Shown here: one piece after another, positions 1 to 3,000 of the stretch
How positions within the stretch are numbered: the first letter of the stretch is position 1
How the letters are laid out: each line of letters begins with the position of its first letter
Virus record (IMG/VR): IMGVR_UViG_2859805564_000001
Source of the DNA: a virus
Taxonomy: Duplodnaviria; Heunggongvirae; Uroviricota; Caudoviricetes
Reading direction: 5' to 3' (one strand)
Length of the DNA stretch: 64,000 bases
Made by a program: the position numbers

Positions 1-3000
1 TTTGCTGTATTCAACAAAGTCATCAATACTGGTTGTGGTCATGACTCCACGGAAACGAAAACGTTCTGTCATGAATCGTTCCAGACTTTCGATATTTACA
101 TTGTCCGGCAATAACGCAACAGGGCATTCCGTAAGCGGCAAATTTTCACCAGAAAAAGCAGTAGTGGTGAGTTTTACAATTTCTTTAATGGCATTGCTAT
201 CTAACTGAGACATGTATATTTACCTTTAATTTATGGATTTGGGGATAATGCGCGAGCGTTTTAAGGCGGGGATTATTCAGCGTAAAACAGCGTCATGTTG
301 ACCCTGTTTATCGAAAAGCTGTCCCTGGTCTTTCTGGAACAAAGTAAGCTCACCACCTTTATTTACAAACATCGGGGTGTTAGTTGTGTCTTCTTCTGAT
401 TTACTACCACGCATTGTCGGGCGTGTGAATTTTAGTTTATGGGAAACTGATACGCGATTTTCATCAAGTGAAGATAATTCGAATTCAACACATACCTTTC
501 CTTTTTTGTTTGTGCTGTTTACGCCAAAGGCAACTTCACTTAATACCGCGCCAAGTTTGTTAACAAATACCCCGCCGTCGAGGTCGTTAATGAAAATATT
601 AACATCTGTCTGATGCTGACTCATATTTATATCTCCGTGTAGAGAGTGTATTGAGGCTTCGGTTGTTTACTGCATTTAAAGCTTGGTTTTGTTTGTGAAT
701 TAAAAACTATCGCTGCCGTACTGCCAGTAACCTGGGGCGTCCGTGTGATTCGGGTTTACGTTTTTGCTACGATTGTCTTTGTCTTTGAGAGTGGAAACCA
801 TATTTGCTACAGTTTCTGGTTTCTTTCCTTCAGCTTTTTCTTTCAGTGTCTGCCCTGTTTCTGCAATGAATGGAATGCGGATTTCCATCTGGTAACCGTC
901 TGCGCCAGTCTTTCTGTTTGTGGTTAATACTTTCTGGAGGACGAGTCCGATTTTCTTTCCGTGAAACTCAGGTGCAACATATTTACTGACGGAAACCATA
1001 TGCTGCGTTAACTGCCCAATTCCTGTGCATCCCATCATGGCGTGAATAATGCTCGCCCCAAATTTATTTTCAGTGCCGTCATTCTTCTGAACACAAACAC
1101 TGAGATATTGGATTTTCCGTCCGTCGTCGGATTCTCCAGAAAACTCAATGAATCGGGCACCTTTTTCTGATTGCTTGAGTTCTGCTTCGGTGATGTTAAT
1201 GATATGCGCACCCGTTTCGGTAATAAAACCACCTTGTCCGGCGGTCAGTGCTGATTCTTCGTTATAAGTAAAAATCACTTCATCCATTAGTTATTAACCC
1301 CCCATTGTTCTCCAAATACAAAACCAATTTCTGCCAGTGCTTCGTCCATTTTGTCGATGAACTCCGGCACCATCTCATCAAAACTCGCCATGTACTTTTC
1401 ATCCCGCTCGACCACGACATAATGCAGGCCTTCACGCTTCATGCGTGGGTCGTAGTTGGCGAAGTACCAGGCGTCCTTGTCTGTAACCCACATGCTGAAT
1501 TGCACCTGGGCCATGTAAGCAGGCTTGATAGCGTCAAAGCCGCCAAGCCGGAACTTCATGAAGTCGCGGGAAGTAAAGGGGCATTTAAGCTCAAGACCGT
1601 TACCGTCACTGCATAAACCATCGGGAGAGCAGGCGGTGCGCATGCTTTCGTCACGAAAAATTATGGGTGTTTCCGAGACGGTAACATCCGCGATAAATTC
1701 AAAGAGGGCACGGGCATCATCTTCATATTGCTTTCCCCATGCGAGCGACTTAGCGTTAACTTCCGGTGCCACGCCAGTACAAACTTCAGCCAGCAGGGTG
1801 TGGAAGTATGACATTTTTGTATCAGGCCATTTGCTGCCGGAACGTGGCTTTGCTATCACATTGTGAACTTCTGAAGCAGTGATAACACCGAGTCTCAGCT
1901 TGTGCCATCCATCATCGCCCTGGTCGAGGCTGGTAATATCCACGCCAGTTCGCTGGAGAATAATTTCTGGTGTCATGACACGGCCTCGCTGTTATTTTCC
2001 GTGGTGGCGTGAATTTTCGCTTCCGCCGTGGCCTTGTTTCTGGCAGCTTTCTTTTTGACAAAATCAAGCGTTTTGACAGCTTCTTCCTGAGAGAGAGCTT
2101 CATGTGATGCAATCGTGCGACGGAATGTTTTGGAACATACGGGAAGCAGGTCATCCCATGTCTTGTTAATTTCGGTGATTGCCTGAGTGATCTCATTGAT
2201 AATCTCATCTGATGCGGGAGTGACGTCACGCTCAGGGATATGATCAGCATTCAGGATGATACCTTCACCGGCCTGAGTGTTCAGGTAGTCGATAGCTGTA
2301 TCCAGGCGATCGCGACGGGGCCAGTATTTGCTGGCGCGCTTAACAATGGCTTTTCTGGCCATTTCATCGGGGAAACTATCCCACGGGCTACTTCCTCCGT
2401 TATTTCCGGCTTTGCTGCACGCCCTGATGACCTCGATTTCCCTGTTGCTCATCTCTTCGGTCAGATAGTCGCCTTCGGATGTTTTTACGACACAATAACC
2501 GCCAATGCGTGCGCCCCTGTCTACGAAGGGGTTGTATTTGTGCGTGGGGGCGCAGTCAATACCGTTGGACTCGTAAATGTCCTTCTCGTAAACAAGTTTG
2601 CATTGCCCCCACTGAATGGCTCCTGTGACCTGTGCCAGATGCAGAAGCCCCATATAACTGATATCCAGGCATACAGCCTTTTTTCGTGGGACCAGATACG
2701 CCAGCTTGCTGGCCGGGTTCAGGGTTATGCCGATGGCGGCAACATTGATGATAGCGTTCTGTGCGCTGGGCAGATTTGCCCTTGCTGTGTCAGCCAGAAA
2801 GGCATTTTTCTGGAATTGCTGAATTGCAAACTGACTTTCCTTCGCCCATGTCAGCGTCGGTTCAGTTAATGCCTCGCAGAAAAAGCGCTCCTGCTGCTTA
2901 ACAAATTCAACGATATCGAACATTTTTTGGTCCTGAAAATCAGAAAGGACAGGGGGAGAATTTTCTCTCCCATTCTTCTTCCGCCCGAGCATAGGCGATC

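What the first reader, a model, noticed from the sequence alone, without database searches (positions are those of the whole stretch)
1..1287. Three accessory genes of unknown function coupled to the 3' end of the recombination operon
The 195-aa gene overlaps the exo stop (TAATG), and two more genes follow on the same strand; none matched a family by eye. The stretch between the integrase end and exo in lambdoid phages is a common site for defence, anti-defence and host-modifying cargo, so these are reasonable candidates for an uncharacterised accessory function.
Basis: inference. Interest (0 to 1): 0.45.

Follow-up and report, generated by a model that had tools for sequence, protein, structure and literature searches.

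The report
Phage SSB gene plus yfdP–yfdQ pair
The three genes after the phage's recombination exonuclease are not one mystery unit: the first is the recombination module's own single-strand DNA-binding protein, already characterised in a sister phage, and the other two are the widespread, always-paired yfdP–yfdQ genes, whose function is still unknown.

Summary
On the minus strand a 195-aa gene (700-1287) starts inside the exo stop codon (TAATG). A 115-aa gene follows (277-624), then a third gene cut by the window edge (1-213; 71 of 273 codons).

The window is a Shigella phage Ss-VASD / ArgO145-type Stx prophage.

**Gene 1** is 86% identical over residues 1-189 to HK620 HkaK. HkaK is a biochemically proven SSB that stimulates its partner annealase through its last six residues. 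Gene 1 is therefore the fourth function of the gamL-recT-exo-ssb module, and the literature already counts it as such. Its C-terminal tail differs: YGSDSF here, NDYPPF in HK620. The tail type matches the upstream partner in 79 of 79 full-length copies.

**Genes 2 and 3** are YfdP (PF27127) and YfdQ (DUF2303) homologues. They form a strict pair in 162 of 162 loci (41 lineages), including Vibrio, Pseudomonas and Xanthomonas phages. The pair moves independently of the Rec module and is usually followed by the deoxynucleotidase gene yfdR.

Fold and profile searches gave no function, and there was no defence-system match. My best guess is a two-protein DNA or nucleotide-metabolism factor, held at low confidence.

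Verdict: already known, with modest interest.

The parts
1973..2923 (-). recT (RecT-family single-strand annealing protein), upstream partner in the Rec module. The longest ORF extends to 2992; the annotated start is 2923.
   Evidence: Pfam RecT E 2e-24 and PHROG 148 E 2e-95; annotation in NC_028685.
1287..1976 (-). exo (YqaJ / lambda-exonuclease family). It overlaps the recT stop as ATGA.
   Evidence: Pfam YqaJ E 2.5e-28; sequence.
1285..1289 (-). TAATG overlap: the exo stop codon and the ssb start codon share one base, giving translational coupling.
   Evidence: Read directly from the sequence.
700..1287 (-). ssb, 195 aa: phage SSB of the HK620 HkaK ('SSB-2') type, the fourth function of the Rec module.
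   Evidence: 86% identity over residues 1-189 to HK620 HkaK, E 2e-127; PHROG 743 'single strand DNA binding protein' E 1e-68; HkaK shown to be an SSB in PMC5928155.
703..747 (-). 3' end of ssb encoding the C-terminal tail (...GYWQYGSDSF). DNA homology to HK620 hkaK stops at 746. The last six codons (703-720) replace HK620's NDYPPF.
   Evidence: blastn junction and per-30-nt identity; tail versus neighbour census.
625..699 (-). ssb-yfdP intergenic gap with a GGAG ribosome-binding site upstream of the yfdP ATG. No promoter or terminator was predicted on this strand.
277..624 (-). yfdP homologue, 115 aa (Pfam PF27127 'YfdP', PHROG 204).
   Evidence: 58% identity to E. coli K-12 YfdP, E 6e-49; precomputed Pfam PF27127:YfdP; AF2 model pLDDT 86.
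1..213 (-). 5' part (71 of 273 codons) of the yfdQ homologue (DUF2303), cut by the window edge.
   Evidence: Pfam DUF2303 E 6.7e-10 for the fragment and 1.6e-65 for the full protein; 52% identity to K-12 YfdQ.

Best explanation
The stretch holds two separate things.

(1) ssb (700-1287) is the last gene of a four-function recombination module, gamL-recT-exo-ssb. It is translated in step with exo through the TAATG overlap. By homology to HK620 SSB, it coats the single-stranded DNA that Exo exposes. Its short C-terminal tail then recruits or stimulates the module's annealase, here RecT. The tail is a swapped cassette: YGSDSF-type when the upstream partner is Exo/RecT, and NDYPPF-type when it is Sak4.

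(2) yfdP-yfdQ (277-624 and 1-213 onward) is an independent, obligately paired two-gene cassette of the early-left operon. In this phage lineage it happens to sit next to the Rec module. I infer that the two proteins work together as a complex on DNA or nucleotide metabolism early in lytic growth. That could mean modulating replication or ssDNA transactions, or acting with the deoxynucleotidase YfdR where it is present. I do not think they are defence or anti-defence cargo.

Shown: the identity of all three genes, the coupling, the tail-partner correlation, the strict pairing and the neighbourhoods. Inferred: ssDNA binding and the tail-RecT contact for this copy, and the whole mechanism for YfdP-YfdQ.
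For: **SSB**
- 86% identity to HkaK. HkaK binds ssDNA, and its last six residues are needed to stimulate Sak4 (PMC5928155).
- PHROG 743.
- Zheng et al. 2025 name SSB-2 for TL-2011c and 'all four functions' for ArgO145. Those phages carry 99% and 100% identical copies.
- Translational coupling is present both here and in HK620 (sak4/ssb overlap).
- Tail census: 58 of 58 Sak4-linked copies end N[DN]YP[PA]F and 21 of 21 full-length Exo-linked copies end YG[SG]D[SN]F.
- DNA homology between the two types ends 45 nt before the stop codon.

**yfdPQ**
- Family membership.
- YfdP lies directly upstream of YfdQ in 162 of 162 loci, 41 lineages, median gap 54 nt. Starting from YfdP, YfdQ follows in 75 of 75 loci with enough downstream DNA.
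- The pair is kept in Vibrio, Xanthomonas and Pseudomonas phages (YfdP HMM E 1e-28 to 1e-45). There it lies within a few genes of exonucleases, Erf and SSB.
- The downstream neighbour is a YfdR-like deoxynucleotidase in 18 of 38 lineages. A dNMP kinase, a 3'-5' exonuclease or an SSB occurs in others.
- Multicopy yfdQ plus yfdR plus yfdS or yfdT inhibits oriC initiation, and yfdQ deletion is reported as MMS- and H2O2-sensitive (PMC4776307).
- No PADLOC hit.
Against: **SSB**
- No ssDNA-binding test exists for this copy.
- No Pfam family, including DUF669, matches it or HkaK at E<=1.
- The tail correlation is confounded by lineage and by the downstream neighbour: Abc2 follows the NDYPPF type and YfdP follows the YGSDSF type. 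The tail could simply travel with the 3' flank.
- IS1203 splits ssb in some O157:H7 prophages, so it is dispensable for prophage maintenance.

**yfdPQ**
- Pull-down experiments in PMC4776307 suggested that YfdQ, YfdS and YfdT do not have high affinity for either YfdR or DnaA, and the authors allow that the overexpression effect may be an artefact.
- yfdR is absent from this phage.
- Zheng et al. argue that the cluster is unlikely to encode recombination proteins.
- Physical interaction between YfdP and YfdQ was not tested.
Confidence: 0.8

Rival explanations
1. All three genes, or at least yfdP-yfdQ, are defence, anti-defence or host-modifying cargo of the early-left accessory region.
For: They lie in the exo-to-int stretch, where lambdoid phages do carry such cargo. 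Function is unknown for yfdPQ, and the arrangement is not universal. The CPS-53 copies are retained in a cryptic prophage and are expressed under a host regulator (PMC9181523).
Against: Gene 1 is a characterised SSB type. There is no PADLOC match for any of them. yfdPQ is conserved at 36-48% identity across Vibrio, Pseudomonas and Xanthomonas phages, and there it sits among exonuclease, SSB and Erf genes rather than in variable islands. No anti-defence library was available, so anti-defence is not excluded.
Confidence: 0.1
2. YfdP-YfdQ is an unrecognised recombination or replication-restart factor that works on SSB-coated ssDNA. This would explain why it sits beside SSB, exonuclease or annealase genes in unrelated phages, and why it fills the Rec-module slot in lambdoid phages that lack a Rec module.
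For: Adjacency to SSB, exonuclease or Erf in four divergent phage groups. In most temperate lineages the pair lies only 2-5 genes from the CI-type repressor, where Rec modules normally sit. LLS-type 'Rec-less' phages carry it (PMC12315714). yfdQ deletion is reported as MMS-sensitive (cited in PMC4776307). Several arginines and an E-D-W motif are invariant across 36-41% identical homologues. The solved homologue 9o7m has 36 chains in one entry, so it forms a large assembly.
Confidence: 0.2
3. YfdP-YfdQ, with YfdR where present, is a host-takeover module that lowers host chromosome replication initiation or reshapes the dNTP/dNMP pool.
For: Multicopy yfdQRT or yfdQRS inhibits oriC initiation, and YfdR binds DnaA (PMC4776307). 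A YfdR-like gene lies directly downstream in 18 of 38 lineages and a dNMP kinase is nearby in 5.
Against: yfdR is missing in this phage, where an unrelated gene follows. YfdQ showed no strong binding to DnaA or YfdR. Deletion had no replication phenotype, and the authors flag a possible overexpression artefact.
Confidence: 0.2

Closest known systems
HK620 HkaK = SSB_HK620 ('SSB-2' of Zheng, Casjens, Smith et al. 2025; described as Pfam DUF669 by Hutinet et al. 2018)
   Same: Same length (195 aa) and 86% identity over residues 1-189. Same position as the gene immediately after, and overlapping, a recombination gene. The C-terminus ends in an aromatic Phe preceded by Asp.
   Different: The last ~15 residues are unrelated (…DAPGYWQYGSDSF versus …DDYGYSQNDYPPF), with no Pro-Phe ending. 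The upstream partner is Exo/RecT, not Sak4. The downstream gene is yfdP, not abc2. No biochemistry exists for this copy.
E. coli K-12 CPS-53 yfdP-yfdQ ('yfdPQ operon')
   Same: Same two families, same order, same short intergenic gap. Identity is 58% (YfdP) and 52% (YfdQ).
   Different: In CPS-53 the pair is followed by yfdR-yfdS-yfdT and has no Rec module upstream. Here it follows gamL-recT-exo-ssb and is followed by an unrelated 147/187-aa gene and a PAPS-reductase-like gene.
PDB 9o7m 'YfdQ Protein' (36 chains in the entry)
   Same: Full-length homologue of the third gene (E 4e-44 by phmmer, 3e-57 by profile).
Lambda Red / Rac RecET recombination operons
   Same: An operon of anti-RecBCD, annealase and 5'-3' exonuclease with overlapping stop and start codons.
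   Different: Lambda, P22 and Rac modules encode no SSB of their own (PMC12315714). This module adds one.

Membership tests
HkaK-type phage SSB (SSB-2 / PHROG 743) | Full-length sequence homology to the biochemically characterised HK620 HkaK | tested here: met
   BLASTP 163/189 identical, E 2e-127; PHROG 743 E 1e-68.
HkaK-type phage SSB (SSB-2 / PHROG 743) | Gene lies directly after, and is translationally coupled to, a recombination-module gene | tested here: met
   TAATG overlap with exo. In HK620, hkaK (4481-5068) overlaps sak4 (5065-5745). An Exo or Sak4 gene lies directly upstream in all 80 copies examined.
HkaK-type phage SSB (SSB-2 / PHROG 743) | C-terminal partner-binding hexapeptide resembling the bacterial SSB tip (NDYPPF / DDDIPF) | tested here: inconclusive
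   The tail here is YGSDSF. It keeps the terminal Phe and an Asp but lacks the Pro-Phe seen in Sak4-linked copies.
HkaK-type phage SSB (SSB-2 / PHROG 743) | Binds ssDNA and stimulates the cognate annealase | not testable with these tools
   Known only for HK620 SSB (PMC5928155).
Pfam DUF669 (PF05037) | Match to the Pfam model | tested here: not met
   No Pfam hit at E<=1 for this protein or for HkaK, and none precomputed. PGAP nevertheless names the IS-split halves 'DUF669 domain-containing protein', and Hutinet et al. state that HkaK corresponds to DUF669.
Bacterial SSB family (OB-fold, Pfam SSB) | Sequence match to the SSB model or to solved SSB structures | tested here: not met
   No Pfam or NCBIfam hit. 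The best PDB sequence hit is E 0.29, to ribosomal eS28. No structure was predicted for this protein.
YfdP (Pfam PF27127; PHROG 204) | Sequence match to the family and to K-12 YfdP | tested here: met
   58% identity, E 6e-49; precomputed PF27127:YfdP; PHROG 204 E 4e-44. The model is not in the local Pfam copy.
YfdP (Pfam PF27127; PHROG 204) | Lies immediately upstream of a DUF2303 gene on the same strand | tested here: met
   63-nt gap here; 162 of 162 and 75 of 75 loci elsewhere.
YfdQ / DUF2303 (Pfam PF10065; PHROG 210) | Match above Pfam's gathering score | tested here: met
   221.5 bits against a cut-off of 26.6 for the full protein, and 39.1 bits for the 71-residue part inside the window; 52% identity to K-12 YfdQ.
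Known anti-phage defence systems (PADLOC-DB 2.0) | Match to any defence-protein model | tested here: not met
   No family at E<=0.01 for the three proteins or for the next gene downstream.
Rad52/Redbeta/RecT/Erf annealases (considered for YfdQ) | Sequence or fold similarity to an annealase core | tested here: not met

The most novel reading that the evidence does not exclude
YfdP and YfdQ form an obligate hetero-complex that is a new kind of phage DNA-transaction factor acting on SSB-coated or exonuclease-processed DNA. It would be the missing recombination or replication-restart function of the ~22% of lambdoid phages with no recognisable Rec module, and a conserved early function in small Vibrio and Xanthomonas phages (the Xanthomonas CP2 relative being a podovirus).
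Probability: 0.15. Interest if true: 0.65.

Novelty: already known. Interest (0 to 1): 0.28.

Why it matters
For genome annotation, the '195-aa hypothetical protein' present in thousands of sequenced E. coli should be read as the Rec module's SSB. RefSeq's E. coli genome annotation (PGAP) still calls it hypothetical, whereas the RefSeq phage record (NC_028685) already names it 'single strand DNA binding protein'.

The tail swap at an intragenic mosaic junction is a neat natural example of partner-specific SSB tails. That is relevant to the portability of RecT/SSB pairs in recombineering.

The yfdP-yfdQ pair is a widespread 'known unknown': about 600 clusters at 50% identity, strict pairing, and a solved homologue with no publication found in the searched library. 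It is a reasonable target for a small experimental study, but nothing here makes it surprising to a specialist.

Tried and rejected
**SSB**
- Pfam and NCBIfam scans: no family, DUF669 included.
- PDB sequence search: only noise, eS28 at E 0.29.

**YfdP**
- Profile of 108 diverse homologues against PDB: AcrB porter subdomain at E 0.01; rejected as marginal.
- Pfam scan of all 108: no recurrent family. The ChlamPMP_M hit is below cut-off and seen in 1 of 108 members.

**YfdQ**
- hhalign of YfdP against YfdQ: unrelated.

**Other**
- PADLOC: nothing.
- Promoter and terminator scan: nothing in the two intergenic gaps on the coding strand.
- The next gene downstream is not YfdR.
- The lead that YfdQ and YfdP might be the virion tail-fibre proteins 'gp36-gp39' of the CP2-like phage PhiXacm4-11: rejected. 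That preprint numbers genes differently from the RefSeq CP2 record and places the exonuclease and SSB genes, which neighbour the pair in CP2, in its early class I cluster. It never mentions YfdQ.
- Literature search for 9O7M: no relevant paper.
- Supplementary tables of Zheng et al. are not held.

Full report
**What is there.** The first 3 kb of the window are 100% identical to Shigella phage Ss-VASD (NC_028685; window position 1 = record position 10321) and about 99% identical to many Stx2a prophages, including the Lyz12581Vzw and VT2phi_272 records. The proteins encoded here are also 99-100% identical to those of ArgO145 and TL-2011c.

All genes in the region are on the minus strand, in the early-left operon: kil (3535-3747), gamL (2940-3221), recT (1973-2923), exo (1287-1976), a 195-aa gene (700-1287), a 115-aa gene (277-624) and a gene starting at 213 that the window edge cuts off.

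- The exo stop and the 195-aa start overlap as TAATG (1289-1285).
- recT and exo overlap as ATGA.
- The next two genes are separated by gaps of 75 and 63 nt, each with its own ribosome-binding site.
- Neither gap has a predicted promoter or terminator on the coding strand.

The caveat is that only 71 of the third gene's 273 codons lie inside the window (full gene L001:9712-10533).

**Gene 1 is the module's SSB.** PHROGs places the 195-aa protein in phrog_743, 'single strand DNA binding protein' (E 1e-68). It is 86% identical over residues 1-189 (E 2e-127) to HK620 HkaK.

Hutinet et al. 2018 purified HkaK. They showed that it binds ssDNA and that it stimulates the neighbouring annealase Sak4 in vivo and in vitro. 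Most of that stimulation depends on its last six residues, NDYPPF (PMC5928155).

Zheng et al. 2025 call this sequence type 'SSB-2'. [quoted passage not shown] TL-2011c and ArgO145 carry 99% and 100% identical copies of this gene.

The gene is therefore not an unknown accessory gene. It is the fourth function of a gamL-recT-exo-ssb module.

One caution on family names. Neither this protein nor HkaK matches any Pfam model, DUF669 included, at E<=1. Hutinet et al. equate HkaK with DUF669, and PGAP labels IS-split fragments of this gene 'DUF669 domain-containing'.

**The tail.** The two proteins diverge completely in the last ~15 residues.

- DNA homology between the two genes is 85% from window 1278 to 746. 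It ends 45 nt before the stop codon, so a mosaic junction lies just before the partner-binding tail.
- I examined 80 IMG/VR loci. All 58 copies downstream of Sak4 end N[DN]YP[PA]F. All 21 full-length copies downstream of Exo end YG[SG]D[SN]F.
- Of four more distant Sak4-linked relatives, three (Enterobacter, Aeromonas, Vibrio) end DAPF or DLPF. The Shewanella copy ends GDDWE.

This fits a partner-specific tail, but the correlation is confounded. The downstream gene also co-varies (Abc2 versus YfdP), and the two types are two lineages. I treat the tail-RecT contact as inference. It is supported by established knowledge that SSB C-terminal tips mediate partner binding.

**Genes 2 and 3 are yfdP and yfdQ.** The 115-aa protein is 58% identical to E. 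coli K-12 YfdP and carries the new Pfam family PF27127, 'YfdP'. The 273-aa protein is 52% identical to K-12 YfdQ and matches DUF2303 at E 1.6e-65. The gene after them is not YfdR.

**The pair is strict and mobile.**

- I pooled 163 loci and called ORFs in them. They came from two IMG/VR scans seeded with enterobacterial and with distant YfdQ sequences, plus four annotated phage-record regions (Vibrio VvAW1, Xanthomonas CP2, Vibrio 36E38.1, Pseudomonas LPPA56). A YfdP homologue lies immediately upstream of YfdQ, on the same strand, in 162 of 162 loci that have upstream DNA. These represent 41 lineages at 85% identity, with a median gap of 54 nt.
- Starting from YfdP, YfdQ follows in 75 of 75 loci with enough downstream DNA.
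- The pair is kept in Vibrio phages VvAW1 and 36E38.1, Xanthomonas phage CP2 and Pseudomonas phage LPPA56 (YfdP HMM E 1e-28 to 1e-45).
- The RecT/Exo/SSB module is adjacent only in the Ss-VASD-like lineage. None of the other 69 enterobacterial loci has one within 6 kb.
- In 38 dereplicated lineages, a CI-type repressor lies 2-5 genes upstream in 17. The commonest downstream neighbour is a YfdR-like 5'-deoxynucleotidase, in 18. Other neighbours are a Rv2179c-like 3'-5' exonuclease (5), a dNMP kinase (5) and a canonical SSB (3).
- In the four distant phages the pair lies within a few genes of YqaJ or DEDD exonucleases, Erf and SSB.
- The YfdP family comprises 598 clusters at 50% identity, all single-domain proteins of roughly 110-130 aa.

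**Attempts to assign a function.**

- Profile searches against PDB and Pfam, and hhalign between the two families, were negative.
- PADLOC has no match.
- A homologue has been solved: PDB 9o7m, 'YfdQ Protein', with 36 chains. It is 94% identical to Xanthomonas phage CP2 ORF37 and 37% identical to this copy. I found no paper describing it, and the preprint on the CP2 relative PhiXacm4-11 does not mention it.

Published experiments are indirect.

- Multicopy yfdQ plus yfdR plus yfdS or yfdT inhibits oriC initiation, but the roles of YfdQ, YfdS and YfdT 'remain unclear' (PMC4776307).
- K-12 'yfdPQ' is treated as an operon under the regulator SrsR (PMC9181523).
- Zheng et al. say that yfdQ and yfdP 'have no known function' and are unlikely to be recombination genes.

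**Best account and rivals.** I am confident in the composite reading (about 0.8): a Rec-module SSB plus an independent yfdPQ cassette.

For yfdPQ I commit, at low confidence, to a two-subunit factor acting on DNA or nucleotide metabolism early in infection. The grounds are the obligate pairing, the acidic YfdQ with invariant Arg, His and E-D-W residues, the recurrent neighbours and the overexpression phenotype.

The sub-hypotheses are a recombination or replication-restart factor, and a host-replication or nucleotide-pool takeover module. Each is at roughly 0.2. Defence or anti-defence cargo is at roughly 0.1. The evidence here cannot separate them.

**Novelty and score.** The exact genes are in published, annotated phages. 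The SSB type and the yfd cluster have both been discussed in print for this very phage group. That is useful for annotation and as a lead, but it is not surprising. I rate it 'already known', interest 0.28.

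Noticed in passing
L255:1000-2900 (E. coli O157:H7 ECP17-46; equivalent to window 700-1287): In some O157:H7 Stx prophages (ECP17-46, H6437) the ssb gene is split by an IS1203 (IS3-family) insertion. PGAP names the two halves 'DUF669 domain-containing protein'. So ssb is dispensable for prophage maintenance.
   Followed up: partly
window 6151-8540: A type II restriction-modification pair sits between the antirepressor-like genes and the cI-type repressor of the prophage: a BsuBI/PstI-family endonuclease (6151-7104) and an Eco57I-like methylase (7101-8540). This is real defence cargo, in the immunity region rather than after exo.
   Followed up: no
window 3818-4492 and 4748-5533: Two neighbouring Rha/antirepressor-like genes share a closely similar C-terminal ~100 residues (…HPYATMNYVDR…VLFDMPSP…GYNVDAAVAEFNAFKHLTEEMRR…) but have different N-terminal halves.
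   Followed up: no
window ~52500-64000: The last ~11.5 kb of the window do not match Stx phage records as a block. They contain an IS2 copy at about 53,039-54,369. The window therefore comes from a bacterial chromosome carrying the prophage, and its right part is host DNA.
   Followed up: partly
L166:3068-3892 (Xanthomonas phage CP2 ORF37): The chain of PDB 9o7m ('YfdQ Protein', 36 chains in one entry) is 94% identical to this Xanthomonas phage protein, not to E. coli YfdQ (38%). I found no publication for it.
   Followed up: partly
L165:2029-3180, L166:3933-5468, L167:2165-3898: In Vibrio phage VvAW1, Xanthomonas phage CP2 and Vibrio phage 36E38.1, a large protein rich in charged coiled-coil-like sequence lies within a few genes of the yfdP-yfdQ pair. 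In 36E38.1 it has an N-terminal region that looks like a YqaJ exonuclease (not scanned against Pfam). I did not test whether these proteins are related to each other.
   Followed up: no
L002:10752-11315 (just outside the window, next gene after yfdQ): The gene after yfdQ has no family in Pfam, NCBIfam or PADLOC. It is called at different lengths (147 versus 187 aa) in different records. It contains a short tandem repeat, EEATRDLEEATRDLEE.
   Followed up: no
proteins P0002 and P0170: Two apparent fusion proteins are in the database: a 398-aa DUF2303 + Ead/Ea22 protein and a 166-aa protein carrying both YfdP and DUF2303 hits. Each comes from a single contig, so they may be frameshift or deletion artefacts rather than true fusions.
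   Followed up: no
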